From NCBI GenBank assembly GCA_965237415.1, contig CBDEFM010000002.1:1120001-1184000 (forward strand): 64,000 nucleotides of DNA, read 5' to 3'. A model generated the notes under the pieces. It saw only the letters and a list, made by a program, of their open reading frames with translations, was not told where the DNA came from and did no database searches. Below are positions 361-16,971 of the stretch, piece after piece. The DNA is from Alphaproteobacteria bacterium (GTDB taxonomy: Bacteria > Pseudomonadota > Alphaproteobacteria > UBA828). The translations under genes and the position numbers were made by a program. Every line of letters starts with the position of its first letter. The first letter of the stretch is position 1.

Positions 361-747
361 GTGTTCAAGACGTACAATCCGGCCGATATCGCGGGGCCGT
401 TCGGCCACTACGACCATGGCGTCGAGGCGGTCAACGTGTCGCGCCTGCTGCACATATCGGGGCAGGTCGGTACCGATCCCGACGGCACCGCGCCCGACGA
501 CGTGGCGGCGCAAATCGAGTGCGTCTGGCGCAACATCGAGGCCGTGCTCGCCGAAGCGGGCATGACGACCGGCAACATTGTGCGCACCATCACCTACATG
601 CTGGATGCCGACTATGTGCCGCTGCTCGGCGCCGCCCGCCAACGGCACTTGGGCGCCGATCACAAGGCTGCATCGACGACCATCGTGGTGGCCGGTCTCG
701 TCCGGCCCGAGTGGAAGGTGGAGATCGATGCCGTCGCCGTGGCCTGA
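361..747 (+). CDS. RidA/YjgF family protein
   Basis: GHY..GV, ISGQVG, VAGLVRPEWKVEIDAVA motifs; GGAGG at 351-355 favours the GTG at 361 over 331. Confidence 0.9.
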   Translation: MFKTYNPADIAGPFGHYDHGVEAVNVSRLLHISGQVGTDPDGTAPDDVAAQIECVWRNIEAVLAEAGMTTGNIVRTITYMLDADYVPLLGAARQRHLGADHKAASTTIVVAGLVRPEWKVEIDAVAVA

Positions 748-796: not shown

Positions 797-957
797 GGGA
801 TTCGCCGGGATTAAGTGGGATTAAGTGGGATAAGTGGGATTCCGTGAGACGGACGGCGGCCGGCTCGGAATGAGGGGTCGCGCACGCCCGGGTCGCGCGA
901 GCCTGAAAGGTCTCGCGCGCGAAATAATGGTCGTGCGCGCGAAATGAGGGGTCGCGC
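797..957. repeat. Phased GGGAT(TAAGT) array plus short direct repeats; putative end region of the Mu-like element
   Basis: GGGAT at 797, 807, 817, 827, 836; AATGAGGGGTCGCGC at 869 and 943; GCGCGCGAAAT at 915 and 935. The repeats are seen; the role is inferred. Confidence 0.6.
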
Positions 958-972
958 GCCCCCGGCCTGCGC

Positions 973-1692
973 TCAGACCTTGATGAAGAAGTTGAGGGCG
1001 ATATAGGGCGGCATGTTGTTGTGGGGCTGTCCGCCGCCGGCGTGGCGCACGCCATAGGTGCTGCCGGCGGCCACCGTGGACGCGGTGCCGGTTGTGCCGG
1101 TGAGCCTGTTTCGATCCGCGCCCGCGCCGTCCTGGCGCACGCCGCCGAGGACGTGGCCATGCGTCGGCATTTCGGCCTCCGTGAGGGTGTGCGTCTCCGC
1201 GCCGCCGGTCGCGCCGGCCCGGCGGGTTGCGGTGGCGCCGAGCGCGAAGCGGTCCCTGAGATCGGGCAGGTTGAAGGTGGTCGAGCCGTCGCCGGGGCCG
1301 TAGGCGGTGCCGATGACGGCGAAGAGGTCGGGATAGGTGGCACGGCTCACGGCGGAGCCGTTGCAGGTCAGCCATCCGTTGGGCCTGGCGCCGGCGTGCA
1401 TGGCGACGGTGCCGGGCGGCACGGCCTGCGGCGGTGTCGGCTGTGGCGGAAGCTGCGCGCTCGGCACTCTGCCTGAGCCGTCGAGGGAGGCGATGCCGCC
1501 GGCGACGCCGCGCCCGAGCTCGGCGTCCGGCACGCGGCGGCGGCCGTCGAGGGAGGCCACGCCGTCGGCGCTGCCGCGCCCGGCGATGATCGTCTTGACG
1601 CGCTGAAAGAGCTTGAAGAACTCCGCGCGGGGCGGGCGGTCGGTGCCGGAATCGACGCCGGCGGTCGAGAGATCGTCCGTTGGCCAGGGCAT
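973..1692 (-). CDS. Phage tail fibre / tail-collar domain protein
   Basis: Two G(V/I)ASLD...RVP repeats; collar motif GWLTCNGSAVSRATYPDLFAVIGTAYGPGDGSTTFNLPDLR; HNNMPPYIALNFFIK end; AGGAGG RBS. Confidence 0.9.
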   Translation of the reverse strand: MPWPTDDLSTAGVDSGTDRPPRAEFFKLFQRVKTIIAGRGSADGVASLDGRRRVPDAELGRGVAGGIASLDGSGRVPSAQLPPQPTPPQAVPPGTVAMHAGARPNGWLTCNGSAVSRATYPDLFAVIGTAYGPGDGSTTFNLPDLRDRFALGATATRRAGATGGAETHTLTEAEMPTHGHVLGGVRQDGAGADRNRLTGTTGTASTVAAGSTYGVRHAGGGQPHNNMPPYIALNFFIKV

Positions 1693-1706
1693 GTGCGCCT
1701 CCTTTC

Positions 1707-2030
1707 AGCTCGGAATTCTCACCGATGTCATGGTCTGCGCGGCGCATTCCGGCCGACAGGGCAGGAAAGGCGCGCAGCGCGTCGCGCGGATACGCGCGCC
1801 TTCGGCGCGACGCCGGGGACATCGGGCAAGCGGCTTGACGAACCCTGTCGGCCGGAAGGCGCCGCCCTTCGGGTCGCGCCCAGACGCCCGCCCGCATCGT
1901 GCGCTCCGCGCGCGTCCCGCGCGGCGTCGCGGGCCTCAACCGTATTCCCCGATACGCTTTTCGGCCCGCTCCTGGCGGATCGAGCGTCTGGGCGCGACGC
2001 AGGCCGTGACATCGGTGAGAACTCCGAGCT
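1707..2030. mobile_element. MITE-like non-coding element (324 bp) with 33-bp terminal inverted repeats
   Basis: 1707-1739 vs reverse complement of 1998-2030 match 30/33; internal GC hairpins; no credible ORF. Confidence 0.75.
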
Positions 2031-5000
2031 AGTCGGCAACGCCGCGCACGACGGCATCGACCACGGCGTCGGCGGGGTTGCCGTCGCCGTCGTAGATGCG
2101 GATGCGCGTCGGGCTGTTCTTGCTGAGCAGCGTCCACGACCAGCCCGCGCCGACCGATTGCAGGGTGATATCGAGGTCGGTCACGAAGCGCAGGTCGGTC
2201 GGCACGATGCGCCCTGTCGCCGCCGTTCCCTGCCACTCGGCGGTGTTGCGATCGAGCAGCTTGCGCTCGGCCGACGGCGCATGGGCGGACCAGCACAGAT
2301 GATCGAGGGAGAGCACCCGGCTGCCGTCGCCGCTCACGCGCCAGCGCAGTTGCAGCCATCGCCCGGCGACGGTGGTTCCTTCCGCATAGGCGGCCCATGA
2401 GGCGGCGGCCACGGCGGCCGCGCTCGCGCCTGCGCGGTACTCGAAGGCGCCGTCGCCCTCGATCTCGGCGGACCAGCGCAGCGCCACGTCGAAGGCGATG
2501 CCGAGATCGACCGGCTCGGCCGCGAAGGCGATCTCGGCGGCGGCGCCGGTGCCGTTGCCGGCGCCCCACGACTGCCAGGCGTCCCATGTCGTGAGATCGT
2601 CCCATGTGTAATCGCCCGCGCCCTCAAGCGCGTCGTAGCCGTCATCGGAGCGCTCGATATCGGTAAGCCTGCCGGGCCAGCCGGCGGCGGAGGGGCAGCG
2701 CCAGAGCAGGGCGTCGCCCTGGCGCTGCGGCCCGAGCTCGGCGACGATGCGCACGTCGCCGGCGGAAAGCCTGCCGCCGGTATCGATGGCGCGGGCGGCG
2801 AAGACCCAGGTTCCCGGCGACGGCTCGACCGTCTCCAGCGGCGAGGCGGTAAGGTGGCCCCGATGCAAGGGCGTCAGTCGATCCCAGCCAAGCGGCGTGC
2901 CGCCGGCGGCGCCGTAGCGGATCAGGACGCCGGCGAGGTCCACATCGGCCGGCGGTTGCCAGCGCAGCCTGCGGGTGCCGTCGCCCAGCACGTCGATCAG
3001 GAAGTTGGTCGGCACGCCCGGCGGGGCGAGGGAGCCCACGATCTCATAGCGTGCGGTGAAGGGAGCGCCGGCGGGCGCGGCCTCGGTGCCGGGTGTCACG
3101 GTCAGGGTGAGGGTCCCTTGGGGCGGCGCGAGCCATTGCGCGGCCGTCTCGCCGTCCACGAGGCGGGCGACAATGCGGGGCGGGGCGTCGTCGACGGATG
3201 CCCGCACGATACCGCCGCGCCAGTCGCCGGCCGTGGTGAGCACGGCGGCGATCTCGACCGCGAAGCCGGCGCCGACGCGCACCTGGGCCTCGGCGAAAGC
3301 GACGCCCAGCACCCGAGGCGCACGGGCGGAAAGCACCGGCAAGGGCGCGGAGAGATCGGCGGTGGCGGCGGCATAATAGGCCTCCACCTCGTCGATGGCG
3401 GTAAAGCGCACGCGCCGGTCGGTAGCGGGCTCGACCGCCGTGATGCGCGCGCGCACCGGCGGCAGGCTCGCATCGTAGAGGCGCCACAAGGTATCGAGGG
3501 GACTCGCGCCTTGGGCGCCCGGCGCCTCGGGGAGCGGATCGTCGAGCTCGATCTCGGCGGTCTCGCCCTGCGCGCCGCCCGCCGCCGAGACGGCCGTTCG
3601 GTGCACCGTGCCGTCCGGCAGGCGGAACAGCATCTCGCCGCCGGCGCTGGAGGTGGTCGCGCCGGAAGGCGCGCGGAGATCGACCGCGCCGGAAGGCGCG
3701 CGAGAAAATGTCGCGCCGGAAGGCGCGCGGAGATCGACCGCGCGGTCGAGGATCACGTGCGCGGCCGTGCCGCCGGCAAGCCGGCCGGCGGCGCCGCCGT
3801 CGATCAGCGAATGGGTGATGTGCACCACGTCGCCGCGCGCGATCGCAAGCCCTTCGGCCGCCATCTCCCAGCTCAAGCGCCGGCGGTGGTAGAGCTGGCG
3901 CGCGGCTTGCAGATTGCACGCGATCGCCGCGTGTTCGGATGAGGTCACGCCTTCGAGCGTGATCGTGGTCGTGGCCGCCGGCGGCCCGTTCACACCCGGC
4001 ACGAGGCGGCGGAGCGTGTTGAACTGCCAATCGAGGTCGGGCTCGATATAGCGCACGGCAATCTCGTCCGCCGCCTGGCCTGCGGCATACTCGACCGCTA
4101 ACGAGCCGGCGACGATGTTGCCGGGCGTCACCAGCGCCGTGGCCGGGCGGCCGGCATCCTCCCAGACGACGCCGAGCTTGCCGGTCTGCCAGCTCGGGCT
4201 CGCGCGGCCGCATTGGGCGATCGTGGTCAGCACCTCGGCATGGGAGCGGGTGCGGTCGAGCACCAGATTGCAGCCGAGCCCCTGGCCCTCGCACCATGCG
4301 CCCCAGGCCTTGATCGAGTCCTCGTCGATGCGCGTATCCGGCAAGCCGACGCCGGCGACCAGGCGGCCGGCGATACGCAGGCCCCGCGCATACCAACGGA
4401 ACAGCCAAGCCGGATTGGAGGTCGCGGCAGGTGCGGTCCAGCGGGCGCCGTCCCACGTCGGCACGCGCTGGCGCACCATGGCGGAGAGACGATCGAGGCG
4501 GCCGGAAAGCTGGCCGGTGGCGCGGATGCGGAGCCCTAAGCGGGTCTGGCCGCTATAGTCGCCGATGTCGATCTGATAGGCGCGCAGCGCCGCCCAGGCG
4601 AGCTCGTCGTGCACACGATCGGAGGGGTCGGGGTCGGCGGTGCGGCGCACGCGCACGGTCCACGTGCCGGCGCTGGCGAGGTCATAGGCGAAGGTGCGGC
4701 GCAACGGCGCTTGGCTGTCGTGCATGAGGGTGATCGTGCGGCGCTGGGTGGCCTGGCCCGGCGCCCGCCATTCGATCTCGATCTCGGCGCTGTTGGCCTG
4801 AATCTCGCCCTCGTCGTCGATGCGAAAGAGGCGGCCGGTGATATCGACGCCGATGCGCCGCGTGCCGGCGGCGGTCGTGCGCTCAAGCCATTGCGTGTCG
4901 TCGAGGGCGCCGCCGGCGATGCTGTCCACGTTGCCGGCGACGAGGGTAATGCGGCCTCGGGCGTCGCCGAACTCGGTCTCGACTTCCTCGTAGGAATCGA

Positions 5001-5790
5001 GGGCGGTGGTGCCGATCCTGAGATCGTCCACGGCGAGGTCGCCGAGGCCGAAGTTGAAAATCTGATGGAGGACGTGATCGTCGCCCGAGATCTCCGTGTA
5101 TTCCGCGGCGCCGAGGTCGGGAAAGACGCGGTGCGCGCCCAACACCAGAAGCAAGGGCTCATAGGCGCGCGCGCGGTTGGCGCCGCCGCTGAGGCTGTAG
5201 ATGGGCTCAATGGCGCGTGGGCGGGCGGCATCGGGCAGGATCGGCGGGGCGATGGCGTTGACGATGAGGCCGCCGGCAATGGTGATGGCGGCGCCGGCGA
5301 GCGTTTGCGCCCACGTGGCGGTGAAGAGCAGGGGCGGCACGACGATGGCGGCGACGAGCACGCCGATTTGCAGGATGGTGCGCAGCGGATTCTTGTCGCC
5401 GCCGCCATCGGCCAGCGCGGCGCGCAGAGTCACGATCTCGCCGCCCTTGAGCGGGGTCTCGCGCCACGCCGCGCGGGCGACAGGGCGGCCGTCCACGGCG
5501 ACGGCTATCTCCGCCCCACCGCTGCGCTGCTTGAGGGCGGTTATCCATTCCTGCTCGATCAGATCGGCAACGGTGGCGCCGATCGCGCGCCCACGCGCGT
5601 CAACGCGCGACGGAAGCGCACAGACGCGCATCTCGCGCCCTTGGGCTGTCAGTCCATGGGGCCAGAGATCGGTTGTTATGAGCTGTTCGGTCGCCCTGCC
5701 GCTGGACTGCTGGAGGGCGATATCGCTCGCCCTAGCGGCGGACTCATTTACCGCGCGCGCAGGGGCGCGCGACAGGGCGGTTATCTCCAT
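2029..5790 (-). CDS. Tail tip / host-specificity protein J-like, fused to an N-terminal lambda-I-like region
   Basis: GDKNPLRTIL, YSLSGGANRARAYEP, ATSNPAW and Fn3-like C-terminal segments; ATG at 5790 overlaps the NlpC stop, so the ORF-track extension to 6057 is unlikely. Confidence 0.88.
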   Translation of the reverse strand: MEITALSRAPARAVNESAARASDIALQQSSGRATEQLITTDLWPHGLTAQGREMRVCALPSRVDARGRAIGATVADLIEQEWITALKQRSGGAEIAVAVDGRPVARAAWRETPLKGGEIVTLRAALADGGGDKNPLRTILQIGVLVAAIVVPPLLFTATWAQTLAGAAITIAGGLIVNAIAPPILPDAARPRAIEPIYSLSGGANRARAYEPLLLVLGAHRVFPDLGAAEYTEISGDDHVLHQIFNFGLGDLAVDDLRIGTTALDSYEEVETEFGDARGRITLVAGNVDSIAGGALDDTQWLERTTAAGTRRIGVDITGRLFRIDDEGEIQANSAEIEIEWRAPGQATQRRTITLMHDSQAPLRRTFAYDLASAGTWTVRVRRTADPDPSDRVHDELAWAALRAYQIDIGDYSGQTRLGLRIRATGQLSGRLDRLSAMVRQRVPTWDGARWTAPAATSNPAWLFRWYARGLRIAGRLVAGVGLPDTRIDEDSIKAWGAWCEGQGLGCNLVLDRTRSHAEVLTTIAQCGRASPSWQTGKLGVVWEDAGRPATALVTPGNIVAGSLAVEYAAGQAADEIAVRYIEPDLDWQFNTLRRLVPGVNGPPAATTTITLEGVTSSEHAAIACNLQAARQLYHRRRLSWEMAAEGLAIARGDVVHITHSLIDGGAAGRLAGGTAAHVILDRAVDLRAPSGATFSRAPSGAVDLRAPSGATTSSAGGEMLFRLPDGTVHRTAVSAAGGAQGETAEIELDDPLPEAPGAQGASPLDTLWRLYDASLPPVRARITAVEPATDRRVRFTAIDEVEAYYAAATADLSAPLPVLSARAPRVLGVAFAEAQVRVGAGFAVEIAAVLTTAGDWRGGIVRASVDDAPPRIVARLVDGETAAQWLAPPQGTLTLTVTPGTEAAPAGAPFTARYEIVGSLAPPGVPTNFLIDVLGDGTRRLRWQPPADVDLAGVLIRYGAAGGTPLGWDRLTPLHRGHLTASPLETVEPSPGTWVFAARAIDTGGRLSAGDVRIVAELGPQRQGDALLWRCPSAAGWPGRLTDIERSDDGYDALEGAGDYTWDDLTTWDAWQSWGAGNGTGAAAEIAFAAEPVDLGIAFDVALRWSAEIEGDGAFEYRAGASAAAVAAASWAAYAEGTTVAGRWLQLRWRVSGDGSRVLSLDHLCWSAHAPSAERKLLDRNTAEWQGTAATGRIVPTDLRFVTDLDITLQSVGAGWSWTLLSKNSPTRIRIYDGDGNPADAVVDAVVRGVAD
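3658..3743 (-). repeat. Three in-frame copies of a CGCGCCTTCCGGCGCG hairpin (RAPSGA peptide) inside J
   Basis: Translates as VDLRAPSGATFSRAPSGAVDLRAPSGA. Confidence 0.85.
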
Positions 5791-6203
5791 CGGTAGACGC
5801 CTTCGAGCACGAGCGCGCGGCGGTCGAGATCGCGCAACGGATGCAGGATCGAGCCCACGCCCTTGAGGCAATGCAGCACGTAAGGCGCGCCCCCGACGGC
5901 GCACCAGATGCCGATATGGTGGCCCACGCTGTGCCGCCTGGCGGCGGCCGCCATCAGCACGCCGTCGCCCTCGCGCGGCGCCCCCATAGTTCCGCGCGCC
6001 TCCGGCGCGACGCGCACCGCGTAGATGCCCTTGAGCGCCGCGATCTGGCGGTCCCACGCGCGCGTACCCGTCTCATGGGCCGGGAGCGCGAGCTCGCGGC
6101 CGAAGCGCTCGCGCATGACCGCCGCCACGAAGTCGGCGCAGTCGTGCCGCCCCTCGACGTAAGCGCGCCCGATGTAGGACTCGGCCCAATGACTCTTATT
6201 CAT
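5781..6203 (-). CDS. Phage tail NlpC/P60-family protein (lambda K-like)
   Basis: HWAESYIGRAY..GRHDCADFV catalytic Cys, HHIGIW, VLHC; lies between DUF1833 and J. Confidence 0.88.
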   Translation of the reverse strand: MNKSHWAESYIGRAYVEGRHDCADFVAAVMRERFGRELALPAHETGTRAWDRQIAALKGIYAVRVAPEARGTMGAPREGDGVLMAAAARRHSVGHHIGIWCAVGGAPYVLHCLKGVGSILHPLRDLDRRALVLEGVYRWR

Positions 6204-6290
6204 TTCCCTCATGCGCCGGGCGCTCGCTCCGCTCGCTTGGCTACGCGCTGCGCGCGCGGCGCGGTCGCGCCGTCCGGGCCTGCGGCCCGG
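6195..6290 (+). repeat. Intergenic REP-like repeat, copy R1
   Basis: 77-bp core 6214-6290 is 75/77 identical to the reverse complement of 8425-8501. Confidence 0.9.
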
Positions 6291-6333
6291 CCCCCTACCG
6301 GCCCACGCCGTACTTGTTGCCGCGCATCCCACA

Positions 6334-7935
6334 TCAAAACAGCCCCGGCGAGGTCTGCGGATCGTGGCGCAGCGTTACGGCGGCGCGGCCGAGCAAGGGG
6401 TCGAAGCCCAAGCGCGCGGTCACGCGCTCCTGATCGACCGCCATGCCGGCCACGTCCAGCGTCACCTCCCACTCGACCGGCGGATCGTCGATGTCGAGCA
6501 CCTGCATGACGCGCACGCTGGCGCCGACGCCACCGCCTGTCGCCTCGATCCATTGCGTGAGCGCGCGCCCCACGTTGTCGATGGCAAGCTCGGCCTGCGG
6601 CGCCTGGCCGGCGATATCGTCGGCGAGCCGGGCGTCGAAGCGGAGCGCGACATAGTCGTTGCCCTCGATCGCGCGCCCGATCGTGTCGTTGATGACCCGC
6701 ACCGGCTGGGCGATGGCGGGATGGCTGATCTCAAGCGCGGTGAGCAGGCGATCGGCGGGCGCGGCCTCGCGCAACGCGCGCCGGTAGCGGATTTCGGCCG
6801 GGCGCACGCGCTCGATCCGGGCGGAGACCTGCGCCCTGCCGGCGGCGGCGAGGCCCCGGAGCGCGCGGACGTAGGCGATGTCGAGCCGGACACGGGCTTG
6901 CGCCCTGCCCGCGGCGGCGGCGGTGCCCCGCACCATGCGGATCGCGGGGGTCACGCGCAGCACGCGCGCGCGCACCTGCGGCGCGCCGGCCTCGGCCACG
7001 CCGCGCGTCTCGACAACAGTGCGGGCCGGGCGCGCCAGCGCGAAGATAAAGCGCTCGCCATCGGCAATGTCGTCGATGAGCGATAACAGGCCGACCGCGA
7101 GCGGGCCGAACTGAATCATGTTGCCGCCCTCGCGCCCGTGATCGCTTGCAGGAAACGAGGCGGCGCCGTCGTGTGTCTGAATGTAAAGAGTGAGATCGGC
7201 GCCCGCGCCGCCGGGGCTGAAATACGCCGCAAGCGAAAGCGGATCGTTGTCGTTGATCGCGAGCATCGTTCCGTTGCGCCGCCTGATCCGGGTGATCGCG
7301 GCCTCGTCCGCGCCGAGGCCGAGCTCGCCGTCGAGCAACGCGCCCACGGCGCCACGCGGCGGCGAGGCATAGATCGTGCCGCCGCTGCCGCTGCCGGCGC
7401 GGATCAGCGCGAGCACGTCGAACTCAAGCCCGCGCCCGTCGAAGTCCGAAAGCGCCAGCGCCGGCACGACGTCGATCCTGGCGCGGGTCTCCGCCCCGCC
7501 GGCGGCCGCGCCGCGCACCGCGTGCACCGCGACATCCGGGAGGCCGTCGGTAAGGGTCAGCGTGAAGTCGCCGACCGCGGAAGCGAACCACGAGCTCATC
7601 GCGGCGCCGTTGTCCGGCGACCAGAAATAGGGCTCGCTGGCGTCGGCGAAGCTATTGTCGGCGTTGCCGGGGCCTTTCAGCACGAGGGTCGAGGCCTCGA
7701 CCGTGAAGGTAAAGGCGCTGTCGGCCGTCTCGAATGCCTCGGTGAACTCGGGCCCGACGTTCTCCGGGTCGGCGGTGGCGGTGGCCGAAAGGCGGACCTG
7801 GAAATTGTTGCCGATCCCGCGGATGAAGCGCAGATAGGCGGTGACCCCGCCCTCGATCAGGGCGGGGTCGATCAGCGCCGCCCCGGACCATCCCTCGCCG
7901 CCGGGGCCGGCGAGCTCGAGAACCTGCGTCGCCAT
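6334..7935 (-). CDS. Multidomain tail protein with C-terminal DUF1833-like domain
   Basis: C-terminal LEISHPAIAQPVRVIND...AELAIDNVGR...DPQTSPGLF; about 390 extra N-terminal residues. Confidence 0.8.
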   Translation of the reverse strand: MATQVLELAGPGGEGWSGAALIDPALIEGGVTAYLRFIRGIGNNFQVRLSATATADPENVGPEFTEAFETADSAFTFTVEASTLVLKGPGNADNSFADASEPYFWSPDNGAAMSSWFASAVGDFTLTLTDGLPDVAVHAVRGAAAGGAETRARIDVVPALALSDFDGRGLEFDVLALIRAGSGSGGTIYASPPRGAVGALLDGELGLGADEAAITRIRRRNGTMLAINDNDPLSLAAYFSPGGAGADLTLYIQTHDGAASFPASDHGREGGNMIQFGPLAVGLLSLIDDIADGERFIFALARPARTVVETRGVAEAGAPQVRARVLRVTPAIRMVRGTAAAAGRAQARVRLDIAYVRALRGLAAAGRAQVSARIERVRPAEIRYRRALREAAPADRLLTALEISHPAIAQPVRVINDTIGRAIEGNDYVALRFDARLADDIAGQAPQAELAIDNVGRALTQWIEATGGGVGASVRVMQVLDIDDPPVEWEVTLDVAGMAVDQERVTARLGFDPLLGRAAVTLRHDPQTSPGLF

Positions 7936-7965
7936 CTATCGTCTCCCGACGCCGCCGGCTTGGGC

Positions 7966-8358
7966 TCAGGTGCCGGCCGGGATACGCACGACGACAGCGC
8001 CGGCCGGTACCCGCAGAATGTCGTCTTCCGTTTGTTGCGAGACCGTGGCGGGCATGCCCTGGTCGTTGAGCAGGCGGCCCCAGGCGCGGACGTTGCCGCC
8101 GGCGGCGGCCGTCATGATGGCGAAGTGGGTGGCGTTCTCGACCAGCGCCGTGGGCGCGAAGTCCACGGCCGCGAGGTTCTTCGCCTCGCCCGCCGGATTG
8201 CCGGCCTCGCGGCCGAGGTCGATTTCCGCCCGGCCGGCGGCCGCAATGAGATTGTTGCCCGCTGCCGTCGGGTCGGCACTGGCGAGCGCCAGATGATCGT
8301 CGCCGGCATTGGCGATGGCGAGCACCGCCCGATTCTGTTCCGCCGCTGCAATAGGCAT
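7966..8358 (-). CDS. Small phage tail/baseplate-associated protein
   Basis: HLALASADP...VDF..T...THFAI..AAAGGN...G.L pattern seen in small siphophage tail proteins; position in the tail operon. Confidence 0.7.
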   Translation of the reverse strand: MPIAAAEQNRAVLAIANAGDDHLALASADPTAAGNNLIAAAGRAEIDLGREAGNPAGEAKNLAAVDFAPTALVENATHFAIMTAAAGGNVRAWGRLLNDQGMPATVSQQTEDDILRVPAGAVVVRIPAGT

Positions 8359-8424
8359 GATCTCTCTCCTCTTAGTGTTCCCTCAAGTAACGGACGCTTG
8401 CAGGGATGTGGACGATGAGGGGTA

Positions 8425-8510
8425 CCGGGCCGCAGGCCCGGACGGCGCGACCGCGCCGCGCGCGTAGCGCGAAGCCAAGCGAGCGGAGCGAGCGCCCGGC
8501 GACTAAGGGA
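8425..8510 (-). repeat. Intergenic REP-like repeat, copy R2 (inverted relative to R1 and R3)
   Basis: 75/77 identity to R1. Confidence 0.9.
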
Positions 8511-8523
8511 TATGAAAAACGAC

Positions 8524-8898
8524 TCACAGCCCGACGCCCTCAAGATCGAGGGACGCCTCCCACGTGCGCCGGCCGTCGCCACCGATGCGCGCGGTGTATT
8601 CGATCCCGCCGGCGCCGCCGCGCACGCGGACCTGGTGCACGCTGCCGCTTTCCGGCGCGGTCCAGGCAAACCAGCGGTGGGCGCAGTCAGCGGCCCAGGC
8701 GCGGAAGCGCCGATAGTCGCCGTCGTTCGCGATCAAGACGGTGATCGAGAGTGCGGTGAACGCGCTCGCGTAGCGGCGTTCCTGGCGGATCAGCCCGTCG
8801 TCGAAGGGCGTGCGGTCCACGTCGTTATCGTCGGCGACGGTGTGGCCGTCCGCCTCGACCGATGCATAGGAAGGCCAGACAAGGCCGGCGGCGCTCAC
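8524..8898 (-). CDS. Distal tail protein (Dit / lambda M-like)
   Basis: WP..., RTPFDDG..RQ.RR, WFAW motifs; directly downstream of the tape measure gene. Confidence 0.75.
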   Translation of the reverse strand: MSAAGLVWPSYASVEADGHTVADDNDVDRTPFDDGLIRQERRYASAFTALSITVLIANDGDYRRFRAWAADCAHRWFAWTAPESGSVHQVRVRGGAGGIEYTARIGGDGRRTWEASLDLEGVGL

Positions 8899-9003
8899 TT
8901 ATTCTTTTCCCTCAGTCGCCGGGCGCTCGCTCCGCTCGCTTGGCTACGCGCCGTTCGGCGCGGCGCGCAGTCGCGCGCTCCGGGCCGCTGCACGGCCCGG
9001 CCC
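8898..9003 (+). repeat. Intergenic REP-like repeat, copy R3
   Basis: Shares CTTATTCWTTTCCCTCA, CGCCGGGCGCTCGCTCCGCTCGCTTGGCTACGCGC and the CGGCCCGGCCC end with R1. Confidence 0.85.
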
Positions 9004-9013
9004 TTCACCCGCG

Positions 9014-9832
9014 TCATGGGAGTCCTCCGCCGAGCTCGCGTTGCATGGTCTGCCTGATCGGCCCGCCGCGCCGGATATCGTCGGTCACGACGGTCACGAT
9101 CAGGCCGCGCGGATCGAGGCGCACCTCGCGGCTTACCTCGCGCTGCGGCGTGCCGCGATTCTCGAAGGTGATCTCGACGGAAGGCGCCGCGAGGGTGGCC
9201 CCACGCGGGAGCACGGTTTCGCCCGCCTGAGCGATGATCGGCACTTCGTCCGGCCGCAAGCCGGCGATACCGCCGTCCGGCCGGAGGCCGGCAATACCGC
9301 CAGAGTGGAAGCGTGGCGCCAGCGCGAAGACGGCCGGCGGCACCGCGCGCCTCACGCCGCCGGGCTGGCCCGCGACGGCGCCGGCGTGACCAACGCCGGC
9401 TTGCAAGCGACCGAACACGGCCGAGCCGGGGGTCGCCCCGCCGCCGAGTGCGCCGAACAGCAGATCGGTGAGCGGTTGGGTGATGTAGCGCCGCGTCGCC
9501 AGCCGGGCGAGGTCCGCGATCACGGAATCGACGAAGCCCGAGAACGAGACCCTGCCCGTGGTCACGAAACGGGCAAGCGCCGACTCCATGGCACCGAAGA
9601 CGCTCTCGGCTGCGTCCCTGGCCTGGTCGAGGGTGCTCCCGCTCTCCCGACCGAGGGCGCCGAGCGCCGTCGTGAGCGCCTGAGCCGCGCCGGTCGCGCC
9701 CGTCAGCGCCGTGCCGGCCTCGTCACCCCGCCGCGCGGAATCGCCGAGGGAACGATTCAGCGCCCCGATTCCTTTGATCGCCTCGCGCATGTCCGCACGA
9801 ACGCGAAGCGCGAGTTCGAGATCAGCGGGCAT
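9014..9832 (-). CDS. Phage tail tape measure protein (unusually short, 272 aa)
   Basis: N-terminal LELALRVRAD; C-terminal FVTTGRVSF..FVDSVIADLARL and PRFHSGGIAGLRPDEVPII..GETVL; follows the chaperone genes. Confidence 0.85.
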   Translation of the reverse strand: MPADLELALRVRADMREAIKGIGALNRSLGDSARRGDEAGTALTGATGAAQALTTALGALGRESGSTLDQARDAAESVFGAMESALARFVTTGRVSFSGFVDSVIADLARLATRRYITQPLTDLLFGALGGGATPGSAVFGRLQAGVGHAGAVAGQPGGVRRAVPPAVFALAPRFHSGGIAGLRPDGGIAGLRPDEVPIIAQAGETVLPRGATLAAPSVEITFENRGTPQREVSREVRLDPRGLIVTVVTDDIRRGGPIRQTMQRELGGGLP

Positions 9833-9844
9833 CGCTCATCTCCC

Positions 9845-10030
9845 TCAGACTTGCTCGGTCGCCGCGCGGTAGAAGAGGACGATCTGCCGCCACGTCAGGC
9901 GCTCGCTGAGGTCGAGGTGGCCGCGTCCGTGGCCGGCACGGACGAGGGTGTCGAGCACCCGGTAGAGCGCAACGGGCTGGCCTTCTCGCCCTTCGCCCGC
10001 GTCGCCACCTGGGCCATGACGCGGCGCAAA
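9845..10030 (-). CDS. Tail chaperone GT extension, predicted to be expressed by -1 frameshift
   Basis: -1 frame relative to G, open across the T8 run at 10035-10028; LVRAGH...LTWRQIVLFYRAA resembles T-type extensions. Confidence 0.65.
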   Translation of the reverse strand, partial: FAPRHGPGGDAGEGREGQPVALYRVLDTLVRAGHGRGHLDLSERLTWRQIVLFYRAATEQV

Positions 10031-10431
10031 AAAAAGCCGCCGTTCGCCGCCCACATCGCCTCCGAGAGCGCGCGCCCGTCCGCATCGCTCAGGCGGGCAA
10101 GCCAGGCCGCGTCCCGGCCGCACGCCCGGGCGGCGAGCTCCAGCCAGAGCGACGCATGGGCAGCGAGCGCGCCTTCGATCGCCAGCGCGTCCGGCCCTTC
10201 TGCCTCTTTTCCGCGCGCGTCCCGCGCGACCTCAGCGTCCGTGCCGTCTTTGCCGGCCGGCACCAGGGCCGCGAGGGCAGCGAGCAATGGCCGCGCCAGC
10301 GCCGTCGCCTCCAGCCCTTCGCGAAAGCGGAACTCCCGCACGGTGAGCGTGACCGGCTCGCGGGTCTCGGGGTCGCGCACCGTCACGTCGCAGTCCGGGA
10401 ACAGGACCGAGAGCTCGTCGACCCCATCCAT
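9895..10431 (-). CDS. Tail assembly chaperone G (DUF6631-like)
   Basis: DELSVLFP...TVREFRFREGL...LSDADG..L...W.ANG.FF.RRV; between tube and tape measure. Confidence 0.78.
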   Translation of the reverse strand: MDGVDELSVLFPDCDVTVRDPETREPVTLTVREFRFREGLEATALARPLLAALAALVPAGKDGTDAEVARDARGKEAEGPDALAIEGALAAHASLWLELAARACGRDAAWLARLSDADGRALSEAMWAANGGFFLRRVMAQVATRAKGEKASPLRSTGCSTPSSVPATDAATSTSASA

Positions 10432-11321
10432 CAGGCGGCCTGCCCGTCGATGTAGAGCGCGGGCCGGCCGTCGCCCGGCTCCAGCATCGAGACGGCGAGC
10501 CGGATCTGCTGCTCGGACGAGCGACCGTCGAGAAGGGTCAACCCGCCGGCCGGTTGGATCGAACAGCGCGGTGCGTAGATATTTCGCCCCCGGCCCTCGG
10601 CTGCATCCTCGATGTAGCGAAAGCCGCCGATCACCTGCCGCAGCGCACCCTGCACCTGGTCGCGCGCGCCATCGTCAGGCGTGTAATCGAGGGCGACATC
10701 GGTGCCGGCCGCGACGCCGGCCTTCGCCGCGTAGAGTGGGTGATCGGGCGGCAGCCAATAGATGCGGGCGCGATCGTAGTCGACGATGTATTGCCCCTTC
10801 TGCTCGGTCTCGCCCGCGCCGGCCGCAAATTGCCCGGCGGCGATCGCTTGCGTTGTCGTCACCGGCGTTTGCGCCGTGGTGGAGATAGTCACGGCAGCGA
10901 TCGCGGCCGCCTTGTCGGCCGGTGATGCCAAACTGAGGACACCGGCGGGCCGGTCGACCCCACCCAGTTGATGCCAGCGGCCGGGCCTCAGGACGGCAGG
11001 CTCGCCAGAGACCGGTGCGGCCGCGTTGAGCCTTCTCATCTCGCCCACCGTGAAGAGCGCCAGGTTCTCCAGGCTGAGGTCGTGGAGCGTGAGCGTTACG
11101 GTGCGCGTCACACTGCGGGCAATGCGCGCAAGCTCGCGTGCGACAGGGCCCGAGCCCGAAAAGACGGTGGTCTCTTCGGTCGTGATCTCCAGGGCAGCGC
11201 CCACGGCGTCGCCGAGGTAGCGCTCGCCCGTGAACGCACCGCCTTCGTGGAGGTCGAGATAGACCTCGCCGGCGCCGATCACGATGTTGTCGGAGCGCTT
11301 GTCGATGTTTCGCGCGGTCAT
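10431..11321 (-). CDS. Major tail tube protein (non-contractile)
   Basis: IGAGEVY...ERYLG...LSLENLALF pattern; after the terminator; no sheath gene. Confidence 0.8.
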   Translation of the reverse strand: MTARNIDKRSDNIVIGAGEVYLDLHEGGAFTGERYLGDAVGAALEITTEETTVFSGSGPVARELARIARSVTRTVTLTLHDLSLENLALFTVGEMRRLNAAAPVSGEPAVLRPGRWHQLGGVDRPAGVLSLASPADKAAAIAAVTISTTAQTPVTTTQAIAAGQFAAGAGETEQKGQYIVDYDRARIYWLPPDHPLYAAKAGVAAGTDVALDYTPDDGARDQVQGALRQVIGGFRYIEDAAEGRGRNIYAPRCSIQPAGGLTLLDGRSSEQQIRLAVSMLEPGDGRPALYIDGQAA

Positions 11322-11333
11322 CTTGGTGTCTCC

Positions 11334-11810
11334 CTATTCCGTTTCCACGACGCCGGCGCGGGCGACGCGGCGGATTTCGTACTCGTCGAGCCATTGCATC
11401 CGCCCATCCTCCAGCGAAACGAGCCGCCCGCGGCGGAAGGACAGCACCTCGCGCTGCCCCGGCGGCGTCCAGCCGGCGAGCGCTTGCCTGGCGCGGGCGA
11501 GCAAGGCGGAGAGCCGCTCCCGCCCGCGCGCGCCGCCGCGGTCGTTGGGCGCCGCGACCATCACTGAGACGCCGACGCGCACGACATGTTGCACCGGCGC
11601 GTTCTCGACCCGGCGCGTCGTGCTCTCCTCCGCTTCGTCGGAGATCGGGAGCACCAGTGCTGCCGGCGTCTTGGGCCAGGCTGTCAGCGCCGCCGTATCG
11701 AGTGCGCTCAGCACGGCGGCGAAGACAGGGTCGCCACCGTCTGCCGTGAGCGCCGCGAGCCGCTCGGCCATGGCATCGGCGAGGTGCATCTCCAGCGCCA
11801 CGAGAGTCAT
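11334..11810 (-). CDS. Tail terminator (Mu gp37-like)
   Basis: TPAALVLP, ALAGWTP, GRL...W.DEY; ATGA overlap with the gpG remnant. Confidence 0.75.
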   Translation of the reverse strand: MTLVALEMHLADAMAERLAALTADGGDPVFAAVLSALDTAALTAWPKTPAALVLPISDEAEESTTRRVENAPVQHVVRVGVSVMVAAPNDRGGARGRERLSALLARARQALAGWTPPGQREVLSFRRGRLVSLEDGRMQWLDEYEIRRVARAGVVETE

Positions 11811-12031
11811 GGCCCCGCCCTTTCGAGCGCGCGCGCGACGATGCGCGCGATTGCATTGCGGTCGCGCTCGTCGATGCCGAGATAGGGACGCGCCGGGATC
11901 TTCGCCCGTCTGCCCTTGCCGGCGAGGTCACCGAACTGGTGGATGGCGGCGTAGACGACGTTCGATCCCACCTCGACCGCACGCCCACCGTCGGTGACCA
12001 TGTGCGCGATCGAGCCACGCAGCCGGCCGGT
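11807..12031 (-). pseudogene. C-terminal half of phage virion morphogenesis protein (Mu gpG-like)
   Basis: TGRLRGSI...VGSNVVYAAIHQFG...IPARPYLG; N-terminal half absent. Confidence 0.85.
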
Positions 12032-12992
12032 AGTCCACGCGCCTGGGCAGGCCCTCGATGAACCGTTCCAGAATGGCGGCGGGCCGCATCCGCACATCGC
12101 CGCCCGACGCCGACGCGAAAGCGATGGTGGCGTGTTCGCCTGCGGCGCCCTCGTCGGCGTTGCCTTGGTCGTCCCCGAGGGCGGCGAGCAGCGCGGTCAG
12201 CGCCGGCCGCTCCGCCGGCAGGATGCGACCCGCTTCGACATGGGGCGCAATCGCCGCGTCCGCAGCCCGCCGGCGGTCGTCGGCCGCGGCCGCGGCCTCC
12301 CGCGCGAGCAGCGCCGCTTCCCGCGCCGTGAGCGAGGCTTCGTGTTCGTTCGTGTCCCTCAGTCGCCGGTCGCAGGCTCCGGGCTGCTTCGCAGGCCGGC
12401 CCACCTTGCCTCCCACTTCATCGATGGCTTCAGGGACGCCGTCTTCCTCTCCGGCCTCTCCCCGCCCCTGAAGCGCGGAGAGCGGGACGAGGCTGTCGCC
12501 GTCTTCGTCCCCTCCCGGCCCCAGGGCGCGGAGAGAGTCGGGATGATCTGAGGGTGAGTCGTCCGGGGACACCGCCCCAGCATCGTCAGTAAATGCGACC
12601 ACCGTCTCGGGCGCGGACGCGAAGCGGGTCGGCACAAGCCCCGACACCGCCGGTGCTCGGCCGCCCAGGAATCCCACGTGGCGCAGCGTGTCGCCCTGCA
12701 GCGCGATCGAGCGGCCGGCGTAGCGCCCGGCCTCGACCGCCTCGCGGAAGGCCGGCGCGATATCGCGGAGCTTCGCCTGCAGCCGGTCGCCGACGCGGCG
12801 GAGCCCGTCGATCCAGGCGAAGGCCGGGGCGTCCGTCTCAGGATGGCCCACGACCACGGGCGCGGGGTCGGCGACGGCGTGCGCGTCGACGATCCGGTCG
12901 AGCCGGGCCTCGTCGATGGCAACGTCCCGGCCCGCCATGTCGCGCCAAGTGCCGGCGCGGCAGACGTCGATCCAGCCGTCGAGCGCGCTCAT
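11928..12992 (-). pseudogene. Mu-like prohead protease/scaffold, C-terminally truncated, with repeat-derived inserts
   Basis: WIDVCRAG.W, APVVVGHP, PAFAWI, GRY..RSI, LRHVGFLG..APAV.GL; after LPRRVDY it runs out of frame into gpG sequence. Confidence 0.82.
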
Positions 12993-13395
12993 CACGCGAC
13001 CCCTCGCGTGCGGAATCGAAGGAGCGCGCTCCTTTGCGTGTGGAATTGATGAGGCGCGCCCCGGATTGCCCCGGTGGCGCGTGGGGTCTGGGTCCCGTGG
13101 TAGGGAGGCGATGCAGCGGTCAGAGCATTCATGGCGCGGACAATGCCCTGCGCCGAACCCCCTGTGCACCGCACCATGGTCCGGGGCGATTTCTGACCGC
13201 TGCGGCTTAGCTATCCGCCTCTCGACCCGTCTCCTCTCCTAGAACTGAAGAGCTGGATTTGGATTAGCCATGAGCACGCACGTTAGGCCACGTGCATCGC
13301 AACTTCCCAATCAATAAGGCGGAGACACTCCCGCCCCGGCCTCATCCTAATCGCCCAACACCTCCCGAATACCGGGCGGCGCAAGCGACGCATCT

Positions 13396-15991: not shown

Positions 15992-16060
15992 CGGAACTCC
16001 TGCATTCTATTGGCACCTCGGGGTGCGAGACCGCGTGCGCGGCCGGATAGCGCTCCGGGC

Positions 16061-16905: not shown

Positions 16906-16971
16906 CCTTCGCCCCCGGATGCGTCTAGTGATCTTTGCTCAGGCTCCGCAGGGACCCGTGGGCACCCGTGG

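What the first reader, a model, noticed from the sequence alone, without database searches (positions are those of the whole stretch)
797..12992. Headless, short-tailed Mu-derived tail operon: candidate domesticated non-contractile tail particle
Seen: the tail gene set (terminator, tube, G/GT, TMP, Dit, small tail protein, DUF1833, NlpC/P60, J, collar fibre) is present, co-oriented and free of stops. No capsid, portal, terminase, transposase, replication, repressor or lysis gene is seen, and the only broken genes are the two at the head-side deletion. About ten repeat or MITE insertions hit the locus, yet all are intergenic or in frame. Established: F-type pyocins and monocins are headless siphoviral tails. 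Inference: this asymmetric decay suggests selection for a tail-only product (F-type tailocin-like or adhesion/delivery needle) derived from a transposable phage in an alphaproteobacterium, which I do not recognise as a described system.
Basis: partly seen in the sequence, partly recalled or inferred. Interest (0 to 1): 0.88.

Follow-up and report, generated by a model that had tools for sequence, protein, structure and literature searches.

The report
Tail half of a conserved Mu-like relic
The flagged tail operon is real and intact, but it is one piece of a phage-derived head-and-tail system that a whole bacterial genus has kept for a long time, so it is probably not an evolved "headless" tail weapon.

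Summary
The tail gene set is present, co-oriented and open, and the interval holds no head gene.

It is not a stand-alone headless system.
- In 14 of 15 same-genus loci examined, the same operon is preceded by protease, scaffold and major capsid genes. Seven of the 15 show both the hisD/SDR and ridA flanks.
- In this genome those head genes survive intact 1.1 Mb away. They sit at the edge of a 25.8-kb, 99.96% identical inverted duplicate.
- A Mu-type portal and large terminase lie about 96 kb away. A repressor/Gam/GemA/Mor block lies about 77 kb away. Both are syntenic across the genus.
- dN/dS is 0.09-0.66, and dS matches that of flanking host genes.
- A 16-nt dyad motif precedes the protease and portal genes, with a degenerate form before TerL, in the relatives examined.

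Best reading: a vertically inherited, multi-locus relic of a Mu/B3-like siphophage, possibly GTA-like. A recent deletion here removed two neck genes and split head from tail. The tail-only reading is not supported. The wider system is interesting but untested.

The parts
331..747 (+). ridA-family flank gene (Endoribonuclease L-PSP); the conserved right-hand neighbour of the element
   Evidence: Pfam hit. It lies next to the fibre/J end in 9 of 15 relatives' loci.
797..941 (.). Partial copy of a dispersed repeat. It is the 3' end of the gp27/MITE-like family and includes 10-bp AATCCCACTT-type tandem repeats.
   Evidence: Genome matches, tandem repeats, family consensus end, and the gp27 unit C-termini.
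973..1692 (-). Tail collar fibre, 239 aa
   Evidence: Pfam Collar 1.2e-23 and Gp10_C; tail PHROGs. It is the fastest-evolving gene, with dN/dS 0.66.
1704..2035 (.). Dispersed repeat of about 332 bp, inserted between J and the fibre gene
   Evidence: More than 25 copies in the genome at 71-88% identity. It is absent from close relatives in 3 metagenome runs, which show a joint from 1703 to 2036.
2029..5790 (-). Central tail fibre / tip attachment protein J, about 1253 aa from the MEITAL start (the ORF runs up to 6057). It contains an in-frame 27-bp tandem array at 3658-3743.
   Evidence: Pfam FNIII-A_GpJ and Phage-tail_3; phrog_31 at 2e-101; NCBIfam TipJ family; tandem array.
5781..6212 (-). 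NlpC/P60-like tail-tip protein of 143 aa, in the position of lambda gpK
   Evidence: No family hit. AF2 model pLDDT 79. Top Foldseek hits are MepS/Spr/NlpC-P60. C25, H99 and H114 are invariant in 10 orthologues.
6196..6290 (.). Dispersed repeat of about 95 bp, found in both orientations, between the DUF1833 gene and the NlpC-like start
6334..7935 (-). Minor tail protein of 533 aa with a C-terminal DUF1833 domain and a long, variable N-terminal extension
   Evidence: Pfam DUF1833 1.5e-19 over residues 391-523; phrog_396. Only the C-terminal part is matched in G003.
7966..8358 (-). Small Gp80-like tail protein, 130 aa
   Evidence: Pfam Gp80 8.6e-11
8424..8519 (.). Dispersed repeat of about 95 bp, between genes
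   Evidence: The stretch is not matched in the closest relative, G004.
8524..8898 (-).
   Evidence: phrog_384 at 5.6e-12; no Pfam or NCBIfam hit; the AF2 model was unusable at pLDDT 43.5; 86% mean column identity in 10 orthologues.
8897..9006 (.). Dispersed repeat of about 100 bp, between genes
9014..9832 (-). Short tape measure protein, 272 aa, with an in-frame 27-bp duplication at 9247-9301
   Evidence: Tape_meas_lam_C 1.3e-17. It matches only the C-terminal ends of tape-measure PHROGs. The relatives' matches span its whole length (query residues 1 to 265-272, single alignments) in 13 loci.
9845..10431 (-). Tail assembly chaperone G (9895-10431), plus its GT extension in the -1 frame (down to 9845) behind a run of 9 T
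   Evidence: DUF6631 and phrog_1442. The slip tract and the T part are conserved in the 6 relatives examined.
10431..11321 (-). Tail tube protein, 296 aa
   Evidence: phrog_807 at 9e-27; NCBIfam tail_tube_6XGR at 2.4e-36; dN/dS 0.16.
11334..11810 (-). Tail terminator, 158 aa
   Evidence: Pfam Phage_tail_terminator 4e-19; dN/dS 0.11.
11807..12031 (-). C-terminal remnant of the Mu gpG / P2 gpS-like neck (tail completion) gene
   Evidence: Phage_tail_S model positions 75-148 only. The full gene is about 150 aa in G019.
12027..12032 (.). Deletion junction with about 6 nt of microhomology. Relative to kin, the copy in the window has lost the protease C-terminus, scaffold, capsid, the 320-390-aa protein, Gp36 and the gpG/S N-terminus.
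12027..12992 (-). N-terminal fragment of the head maturation protease (the intact 447-aa copy is at C2:24639-25982)
   Evidence: phrog_976 at 1.3e-43, covering profile positions 32-322 of 415. The intact copy is shown.
13166..13181 (-). Dyad motif ACCATGGTGCGGTGCA upstream of the protease; candidate late promoter or operator
   Evidence: Present in 14 of 14 genomes at the same place, exact in 12. Genome-wide family.
12027..37806 (.). Copy A of a 25.8-kb inverted duplication. Copy B is C2:25781-1, at the contig start.
   Evidence: 99.96% identity, 5 substitutions and 1 indel inside the repeat.

Best explanation
The flagged operon is the tail half of a genus-wide, vertically inherited relic of a Mu/B3-like transposable siphophage. 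The relic is now spread over several chromosomal loci.

Loci
- A repressor/Gam/GemA/Mor block with a possible lysis pair beside it.
- A TerL-portal pair.
- One long late operon: protease, scaffold, capsid, a 320-390-aa protein, Gp36, gpG/S, terminator, tube, G/GT, short tape measure, lambda-like tip, fibre.

Shown
- The loci and their gene order are conserved at the same host sites.
- Their synonymous divergence equals that of host neighbours.
- All genes are under purifying selection.
- A conserved dyad motif stands before the protease operon and the portal, with a degenerate form before TerL.
- No transposase or MuF accompanies them.

Inferred
- The host keeps the set to make complete, short-tailed particles on induction. 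The proposed route is cleavage of the S24 repressor, then the Mor-like activator, then the dyad-marked late promoters. These particles would act like a gene transfer agent, not like a phage.
- In this genome a very recent rearrangement changed the layout. A 25.8-kb inverted duplication carried the promoter and head genes to a second site, and a microhomology deletion removed them from the original site. Head and tail genes now sit in two operons with identical promoters, and Gp36 and half of gpG/S were lost. Heads and tails may therefore no longer join.
- The 'headless' look is a young accident, not an evolved tail-only design.
For: - Layout in relatives. 14 of 15 fetched same-genus loci have the capsid gene in the locus. 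9 of 15 have hisD-SDR-small ORF upstream, 9 of 15 have ridA downstream, and 7 of 15 have both.
- Head genes in this genome. Protease (447 aa), scaffold and capsid (324 aa) are intact at C2:24639-27326, inside or next to the duplicate.
- TerL and Mu portal lie at C2:1226.5-1231.0 kb.
  - Portal orthologues of 84-96% identity with open frames are found in 15 of 20 relatives.
  - The racemase-TerL-portal-pyc order is seen in 5 of 10 fetched loci.
- The regulator block is matched over 1.2 kb or more in 13 of 20 relatives.
- Selection. Median dN/dS is 0.09 for capsid, 0.11 terminator, 0.16 tube, 0.18 portal, 0.24 TerL, 0.27 tape measure, 0.41 J and 0.66 fibre. Host neighbours give 0.09-0.18. Element dS is 0.26-0.67 and host dS is 0.31-0.82.
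- Trees. The host and element trees share 3 of 5 splits among 8 taxa.
- Distribution. The capsid is found in 16 of 20 other species of the genus and in 0 of 28 genomes of 13 other genera of the order.
- Dyad motif. It is present before the protease in 14 of 14 genomes and before the portal in 10 of 10. A degenerate form stands before TerL in 9 of 11.
- Neck genes. Gp36 is found in 4 of 4 relatives searched and not in G000. The only Phage_tail_S match in G000 is the half gene.
- Missing phage functions. No MuF is found in G000. The single Mu-transposase domain hit lies 2.4 Mb away.
Against: - There is no experimental evidence of particles, of DNA packaging or of expression.
- About half of the carriers show a lesion:
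  - G004: protease frameshift and scaffold deletion
  - G006: tail genes deleted
  - G008: insertion in TerL
  - G009: 4.4-kb insertion in the terminator
  - G011: stop codon in the NlpC-like gene
  - G018: only J and the fibre remain
  - G020: insertion in the protease and loss of three tip genes
. This also fits slow decay or a dispensable function.
- MuF is missing, and a dedicated small terminase next to TerL is missing.
- The lysis assignment rests on DUF5675 plus a weak holin match.
- dN/dS was computed pairwise against G000 only, with NG86, in a genome with very biased codon usage. The comparisons are not independent.
- 2 of 5 tree splits conflict.
- The duplication touches a contig end and could not be checked with reads. 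No public run holds this strain; the best share of words was 0.56.
Confidence: 0.6

Rival explanations
1. One reading: the locus is a domesticated, head-independent, non-contractile tail particle (F-type tailocin-like, or an adhesion/delivery needle) maintained by selection for a tail-only product.
For: - In G000 all tail genes are open and keep their own copy of the dyad-marked promoter.
- The two neck genes that would join heads to tails are gone.
- The sister genome G004 has also lost head function (protease frameshift, scaffold deletion, capsid missing its first 29 residues) while its tail genes stay open. Their dN/dS against G000 is 0.07-0.43.
Against: - The headless layout is not shared. 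14 of 15 relatives' loci carry the capsid gene, and it is the best conserved gene of the set.
- G000 keeps intact head genes, a portal and a TerL.
- Tail-side lesions are as frequent as head-side ones across the genus.
- The deletion is too young for selection to have acted, at 6 differences in 25.8 kb.
- The gpG/S-type tail completion gene is itself broken.
- There is no lysis or regulator cassette at the locus.
Confidence: 0.1
2. It is an ordinary defective prophage in slow decay with no present host function. The low dN/dS reflects past phage life or recombination with incoming related phages.
For: - Lesions are seen in G000 and in 7 of the 15 relatives whose loci were fetched.
- The element is missing from 3 complete genomes, G012, G015 and G016.
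- MuF and the transposase are lost.
- Related, apparently active Mu-like prophages exist in the genus. G013 has three copies of a portal at 52% identity. These could supply recombination partners.
- J and the fibre are the most divergent genes.
Against: - The host flanks are the same in 7 of 15 loci, and synteny is separately conserved at the TerL-portal locus.
- dS equals that of host genes, so the divergence accrued in place.
- With dS of about 0.4-0.6, neutral drift would have littered about 20 kb of coding sequence with stops and frameshifts. Yet 8 loci show none in the parts seen.
- The promoter motif is conserved exactly in 12 of 14 genomes.
Confidence: 0.2
3. The split layout in this genome (deletion at 12027 plus a second copy at the contig start) is an assembly artefact or a mixture of two cell populations. 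The real chromosome would then have one intact element.
For: - Copy B runs exactly to position 1 of contig C2.
- Two further contig ends, the C1 start and the C1 end, are also long near-identical duplicates of internal regions.
- CheckM-type contamination is 6.35%.
Against: - The two copies differ by real substitutions, 5 plus 1 indel, not by homopolymer noise.
- Both phage-side junctions lie inside contigs. The deletion junction has a clean microhomology of about 6 nt.
- About 690 bp of the ancestral element are in neither copy, and no Gp36 match is found anywhere in the assembly. A simple mis-join would not produce that.
- Contig ends stopping at the far edge of long repeats is what real repeats produce.
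Confidence: 0.07

Closest known systems
B3-like transposable siphophages of Pseudomonas (Beetrevirus: JBD67, JD18, PM105)
   Same: - Best phage matches: capsid 38-39% identity, scaffold 46%, portal 38%, TerL 33-34% over nearly full length.
- The gene order protease-scaffold-capsid...terminator-tube-chaperone-tape measure is the same.
- The terminator and chaperone are weakly alike.
   Different: - No transposase, MuF, adjacent small terminase or contiguous genome.
- The tape measure is 272 aa. I recall, but did not measure, that B3-like tape measures are far longer; the JBD67 record's tape-measure entry is cut by a sequence ambiguity.
- The tip module is lambda/TipJ-like, and JBD67 tail-tip proteins gave no hit.
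- gpG/S lies after the capsid, not before the protease.
Gene transfer agents (RcGTA of Rhodobacter capsulatus and its alphaproteobacterial relatives)
   Same: A phage-derived head-tail-packaging gene set without a replication module, inherited vertically, scattered over several loci, under purifying selection with fast-evolving host-recognition genes, and with a short tape measure. The description of RcGTA's multi-locus layout is taken from the abstract listing of PMC5026251 and from recall.
   Different: - Not homologous. G000 has no GTA_TIM and no HK97-type capsid family match.
- The ancestry is Mu-type.
- Regulation appears to be phage-type (S24 repressor, Mor-like activator). I recall RcGTA as being under host CtrA-type control.
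- Packaging of host DNA is untested.
F-type pyocins / monocins (headless flexible tail bacteriocins)
   Same: A non-contractile tail gene set with a lambda-like tip (J, gpL-like and gpK-like proteins) and no head gene in the interval. The pyocin description is recalled.
   Different: - Head, portal and terminase genes of the same element are retained in the genome and in relatives.
- There is no adjacent lysis or regulator cassette.
- The headless state is not conserved.
Phage lambda tail tip module (gpM/L/K/I/J)
   Same: DUF1833 (minor tail protein, phrog_396), an NlpC/P60-fold protein in the gpK position, a TipJ-family J with the FNIII-A_GpJ domain, and Tape_meas_lam_C in the tape measure.
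   Different: - J is at most about 30% identical to any phage J in the collection.
- The DUF1833 protein has a 380-residue N-terminal extension.
- A collar-domain fibre follows J.

Membership tests
F-type tailocin (headless non-contractile tail bacteriocin) | The system lacks head and packaging genes | tested here: not met
   This holds for window 797-12992 only. The genome holds the element's own protease, scaffold and capsid, a portal and a TerL.
F-type tailocin (headless non-contractile tail bacteriocin) | The headless layout is conserved among related genomes at the same site | tested here: not met
   14 of 15 relatives' loci carry the capsid gene upstream of the tail genes.
F-type tailocin (headless non-contractile tail bacteriocin) | A complete non-contractile tail gene set with open frames | tested here: inconclusive
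   Terminator, tube, G/GT, tape measure, tip and fibre are all open. The gpG/S-type tail completion gene is truncated.
F-type tailocin (headless non-contractile tail bacteriocin) | Released particles kill or bind target cells | not testable with these tools
   Needs induction, EM and activity assays.
Gene transfer agent (functional class) | A phage-like head, tail and packaging gene set, vertically inherited at conserved host sites | tested here: met
   Synteny at the structural and TerL-portal loci. dS equals that of host genes. The trees are largely congruent.
Gene transfer agent (functional class) | Purifying selection on the structural genes | tested here: met
   Median pairwise dN/dS is 0.09-0.66 for 18 element genes. 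Caveat: NG86, and all pairs include G000.
Gene transfer agent (functional class) | No means of self-replication or self-transfer | tested here: inconclusive
   No transposase was found in the loci inspected. MuF is absent from G000. One Mu-transpos_C hit lies at C2:3.59 Mb and was not examined.
Gene transfer agent (functional class) | Particles package host DNA and transfer it | not testable with these tools
   Needs sequencing of DNase-protected particle DNA and marker transfer assays.
RcGTA family (homology) | RcGTA-type genes (GTA_TIM g15 domain, HK97-type capsid) | tested here: not met
   No match in G000, while the controls rang in Caulobacter.
Mu-like transposable phage (functional prophage) | Mu-type late and early genes (portal, Gp36, gpG/S, gp27, Gam, GemA, Mor) | tested here: met
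   Gp36 is found in relatives only.
Mu-like transposable phage (functional prophage) | Transposase A/B, MuF and one contiguous genome | tested here: not met
   The genes are scattered over 3-4 loci separated by host genes. There is no MuF and no transposase in the loci inspected.

The most novel reading that the evidence does not exclude
The genus carries a gene-transfer-agent-like system of independent, Mu-type origin whose control and packaging signals have been spread around the chromosome.

What is seen
- The 16-18-nt dyad motif that precedes the protease operon and the portal (a degenerate form stands before TerL) also heads about 45-60 dispersed short elements.
- Ten of these are about 720-bp units encoding a Mu gp27 (small terminase)-like protein. 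The rest look like deletion derivatives.
- The motif occurs 8-57 times in each of the 18 genus genomes that carry the element's portal or a remnant of it. It occurs zero times in the 3 complete genomes (G012, G015, G016) that lack both that portal and the capsid gene.

What is proposed
- These sites might be Mor-dependent late promoters.
- More boldly, they might be dispersed small-terminase genes with their own pac-like sites. These would start headful packaging at many chromosomal positions, giving generalised transfer of host DNA.
Probability: 0.18. Interest if true: 0.9.

Novelty: new variant of a known kind. Interest (0 to 1): 0.68.

Why it matters
Only a handful of independently domesticated phage-particle systems are known. 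A Mu-type one, held by a whole alphaproteobacterial genus that has no RcGTA cluster, would be a new origin of such systems.

It would also be easy to test:
- intact and naturally broken versions exist side by side in sister species;
- a candidate switch is identified (S24 repressor, Mor-like activator, one conserved dyad motif);
- this genome offers a natural experiment in which head and tail operons are separated and the neck genes are lost.

For the scan, the lesson is that a 'headless' operon in one window can be the visible part of a split element.

Tried and rejected
- RcGTA cluster. I first suspected one because of the GC content, the short tape measure and the NlpC/P60 protein. I rejected this: the Pfam families differ, and GTA_TIM and the HK97 capsid family are absent.
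- Read check of the 12027 junction. No public run holds this strain; the best share of words was 0.56. Four runs (X1, X3, X5, X19) were laid as contigs. The rows shown included nothing that bridges 11950-12100, so the junction is unverified.
- Expression. Contigs from the metatranscriptome run X19 lie on parts of the fibre gene and J at 95-99% likeness. DNA carry-over cannot be excluded, so I do not count this as expression.
- Fold of the 124-aa 'Dit' candidate. pLDDT was 43.5, so it was not searched. PDB sequence searches with it and with the NlpC-like protein gave only E>0.3.
- Rfam on 600-14000. Two sub-threshold miRNA-model matches, taken as chance.
- Taxon hint from an IS copy searched against plasmids: no match.
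- Literature. Five searches found no Mu-derived GTA or tailocin in an alphaproteobacterium. I read listings and abstract starts only and opened no paper. Supplements are closed. The searched library omits many subscription journals.
- My GC3-based gene picker is crude. Gene calls outside the window are ORFs supported by family hits, not curated models.
- Small ORF 13396-13686. I considered it as a regulator of the element. It has no family hit and travels with the hisD/SDR flank, not with the element: it is absent next to the element in G002, G003 and G008.

Full report
WHAT IS IN THE INTERVAL

The window is G000:C2:1120001-1184000, from a two-contig, 4.75-Mb genome of about 72% G+C. On the minus strand of 797-12992 there is an uninterrupted, co-oriented set of open frames. 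Their family matches are:
- collar fibre, 973-1692 (Collar, 1.2e-23)
- J, 2029-5790 (FNIII-A_GpJ, Phage-tail_3, phrog_31 at 2e-101, NCBIfam TipJ)
- a 143-aa protein, 5781-6212
- a 533-aa protein with a C-terminal DUF1833 domain, 6334-7935
- a Gp80-like protein, 7966-8358
- a 124-aa phrog_384 protein, 8524-8898
- a 272-aa tape measure, 9014-9832, which matches only the C-terminal end of tape-measure models
- a DUF6631 chaperone, 9895-10431
- the tube, 10431-11321 (phrog_807, NCBIfam tail_tube_6XGR)
- a tail terminator, 11334-11810
.

The chaperone has a run of 9 T. Behind it, in the -1 frame, lies a strongly conserved T part. The tract (8-11 T) and the T part are present in all 6 relatives examined.

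The 143-aa protein hits no family library. Its model (pLDDT 79) matches MepS/Spr and other NlpC/P60 peptidases best (E about 3e-3, TM about 0.5). It keeps an invariant Cys and two invariant His in 10 orthologues.

The 'Dit' label for 8524-8898 could not be tested, because the model had pLDDT 43.5.

At the upstream end, 11807-12031 is the C-terminal half of a Mu gpG / P2 gpS-type gene (Pfam positions 75-148). Window 12027-12992 is the N-terminal part of a head maturation protease (phrog_976).

Repeats: five dispersed-repeat copies sit between genes, and four short tandem arrays sit inside genes with periods divisible by three. The 332-bp insert at 1704-2035 is missing from close relatives in three metagenome runs.

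THE REST OF THE GENOME CHANGES THE PICTURE

- Duplication. Window 12027-37806 is repeated, inverted, at C2:25781-1. Inside the repeat there are only 5 substitutions and 1 indel.
- Second copy. Past the point where the window's copy jumps into gpG/S, the second copy continues with the rest of the protease (447 aa), a scaffold/cement protein (118 aa), a major capsid protein (324 aa, phrog_1005 at 9e-70), and most of a further gene. Homology to relatives ends about 22 codons before that gene's stop.
- Deletion junction. The junction in the window has about 6 nt of microhomology.
- Lost sequence. About 690 bp of the ancestral element are in neither copy: the Gp36-type adaptor gene and the first half of gpG/S. 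Gp36 is found in 4 of 4 relatives searched and not in G000. The only Phage_tail_S match in G000 is the half gene.
- Packaging genes. A TerL aligns over nearly its full length with that of the B3-like phage JBD67 (33%). A Portal_Mu protein (7e-87) lies at C2:1226.5-1231.0 kb, about 96 kb from the tail locus and outside the window.
- Regulators. At C2:1210.3-1213.3 kb lie an S24 repressor-like gene, a Gam-like gene, GemA and a Mor-like late activator.
- Possible lysis pair. Beside them lie a DUF5675 protein and a membrane protein with a weak holin match.
- Absent or distant. MuF is not found. The only Mu-transposase domain hit is 2.4 Mb away.

WHAT RELATIVES SHOW

I fetched the locus from 15 same-genus genomes and mapped G000 proteins on them.

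- Flanks. The order hisD-SDR-small ORF-protease-scaffold-capsid-(320-390-aa protein)-Gp36-gpG/S-terminator-tube-G/GT-tape measure-...-J-fibre-ridA is seen with both flanks in 7 of 15. The upstream flank is seen in 9 and the downstream flank in 9.
- Capsid. It is present in the locus in 14 of 15; G018 keeps only part of J and the fibre.
- Start of the element. It always begins at the protease. No portal or terminase adjoins it.
- Tape measure. The relatives' matches cover the G000 protein from residue 1 to residue 265-272 in single alignments, in all 13 loci that have it, so the short form is shared.
- TerL-portal pair. It has its own conserved site: racemase-TerL-portal-pyruvate carboxylase in 5 of 10 fetched loci, with further partial matches.
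- Portal. Orthologues of 84-96% identity with open frames occur in 15 of 20 relatives.
- Regulator block. It is matched over at least 1.2 kb in 13 of 20 relatives. In G002 and G003 it lies directly upstream of the protease, which suggests a once contiguous prophage.
- Distribution. The capsid is found in 16 of 20 other species of the genus and in none of 28 genomes from 13 other genera of the order.

SELECTION

I computed pairwise NG86 estimates of G000 against each relative. Median dN/dS values are:
- 0.09 capsid
- 0.11 terminator
- 0.16 tube
- 0.17 scaffold
- 0.18 portal
- 0.24 TerL
- 0.26-0.31 tape measure, chaperone and the small tail proteins
- 0.35-0.41 protease, the 320-390-aa protein, the NlpC-like protein and J
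- 0.53 DUF1833 protein
- 0.66 fibre

Flanking host genes give 0.09-0.18. Synonymous divergence of element genes (0.26-0.67) is the same as that of host neighbours (0.31-0.82). Concatenated host and element trees share 3 of 5 splits among 8 common taxa, including the G000+G004 pair. The element has therefore diverged in place, with its host, under constraint.

Caveats: all pairs include G000, NG86 is crude at 90% GC3, and two splits conflict.

DECAY IS NOT ASYMMETRIC

Lesions seen:
- G000: this deletion
- G004: protease frameshift, and a deletion from protease residue 361 to capsid residue 30
- G006: terminator to the DUF1833 N-terminus deleted
- G008: about 5 kb inserted in TerL
- G009: 4.4 kb inserted in the terminator
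- G011: stop codon in the NlpC-like gene
- G018: everything deleted from Mor to the middle of J
- G020: insertion in the protease and loss of three tip genes
.

Head-side and tail-side damage are about equally common. Eight loci show no lesion in the parts seen. This fits a dispensable but selected function, or slow loss. It does not fit selection for tails alone.

A SHARED CONTROL MOTIF

The 16-mer ACCATGGTGCGGTGCA contains the palindrome GCACCATGGTGC.
- Upstream of the protease it is present in 14 of 14 genomes (12 exact).
- Upstream of the portal it is present in 10 of 10 (7 exact).
- Upstream of TerL a degenerate form stands at a conserved distance in 9 of 11.
- It also precedes the DUF5675/holin-like pair.

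Both copies of the duplicated promoter region in G000 carry it (C2:24627 and window 13181). Head and tail operons therefore now each have one.

The motif is not confined to these loci. G000 has 126 strand-hits of a 15-mer with up to 2 mismatches, against about 21 expected. Sixty instances share a longer consensus that ends in AATCCCACTT repeats. Ten are about 720-bp units encoding a Mu gp27 (small terminase)-like protein.

An 18-mer version with up to 1 mismatch occurs 8-57 times in each of the 18 genus genomes that carry the element's portal or a remnant of it. It occurs zero times in G012, G015 and G016, the three complete genomes that lack that portal and the capsid. The reversed control gives zero everywhere. 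These three genomes may be one clade, so this could reflect a single event.

HOW IT MOST LIKELY WORKS

Shown: a Mu/B3-like siphophage gene set without transposition genes, split over conserved host sites, constrained, and tied together by one cis motif.

Inferred: the S24 repressor holds an early operon that ends in the Mor-like activator. That activator turns on the dyad-marked late units: the lysis pair, TerL, the portal and the long head-tail operon. The products assemble into small-tailed particles. By the recalled rule of about 0.15 nm per tape-measure residue, the tail would be about 40 nm. Because nothing amplifies or marks the element's own DNA, such particles would carry host DNA, as gene transfer agents do.

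G000 has no RcGTA-type genes. In G000 itself the loss of Gp36 and of half of gpG/S probably prevents head-tail joining, so free tails are conceivable. But that state is only about 6 mutations old.

COMPARISON AND NOVELTY

- Closest phages: B3-like transposable Pseudomonas siphophages for the head and packaging genes.
- Tip module: lambda/TipJ-like, with J at most about 30% identical to any phage J in the collection.
- Functional analogy: closest to GTAs, but it is not a member of the RcGTA family.
- F-type tailocin: it fails the two defining tests that could be run.
- Literature: five full-text searches found no Mu-derived GTA or tailocin of this kind. I saw listings and abstract starts only.
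- Rating: a new variant of a known kind, supported by comparative genomics alone.

VERDICT

Observation: partly confirmed. Interpretation: partly supported (Mu ancestry and domestication yes, tail-only no). Interest 0.68, because the wider system is a credible and testable candidate for an independently evolved particle system, and it came with an unexpected genome-wide motif/gp27 family.

Noticed in passing
G000 C2: 3851326, 1740972, 2013611, 1398714, 1503974, 668041, 94702, 1762899, 3920347, 1800266 (outside the window): Ten stand-alone copies of a Mu gp27 (small terminase)-like gene, in two subfamilies. Each is a repeat unit of about 720 bp that starts with the dyad motif and ends in AATCCCACTT-type repeats. 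About 50 shorter elements share both ends, like deletion derivatives.
   Followed up: partly
genus-wide; in the window at 13166-13181: The 18-mer GGACCATGGTGCGGTGCA (up to 1 mismatch) occurs 8-57 times in 18 genus genomes. It occurs zero times in the 3 complete genomes (G012, G015, G016) that lack the element's portal and capsid. The reversed control gives zero everywhere.
   Followed up: partly
window 12027-37806 = C2:25781-1; C1:1-15493 = C1:273345-257808; last 13.5 kb of C1 = C2:2237779-2224311: Three of the four contig ends are long (13-26 kb), 99.96-100% identical copies of internal regions. The two that lie within one contig, and the C1-end/C2 pair, all run in inverted orientation. These are large recent duplications or unresolved assembly.
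   Followed up: partly
G000 C2:1228074-1229426 (outside the window): A 450-aa RTX calcium-binding repeat protein sits between TerL and the portal in G000, G004 and G005 only. It is an insertion in one subclade.
   Followed up: no
window 3658-3743 (J); NlpC-like orthologues in L028, L037, L025: The same GC-rich unit is expanded in frame in different tail genes of different species. It reads as ...RAPSGA... or ...APEARG... These are hypervariable in-frame repeats.
   Followed up: no
G013 (C8:87062, C9:186768, C9:16685): Three copies of a portal only 52% identical to the relic's, with capsids at 36-38%. This is probably an active, multi-copy Mu-like phage in the same genus.
   Followed up: no
window 34860-36095: An IS-like element of about 1.23 kb with many copies in the genome at 74-96% identity. 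It had no match in the plasmid collection.
   Followed up: no
chaperone slip site, window about 10030; L024, L030, L048: The poly-T tract of the G/GT chaperone varies in length. G000, G001, G008 and G019 have 9 T, G004 and G002 have 8, and G017 has 11. The zero frame therefore differs between species, which hints at slippage that tolerates either register.
   Followed up: partly
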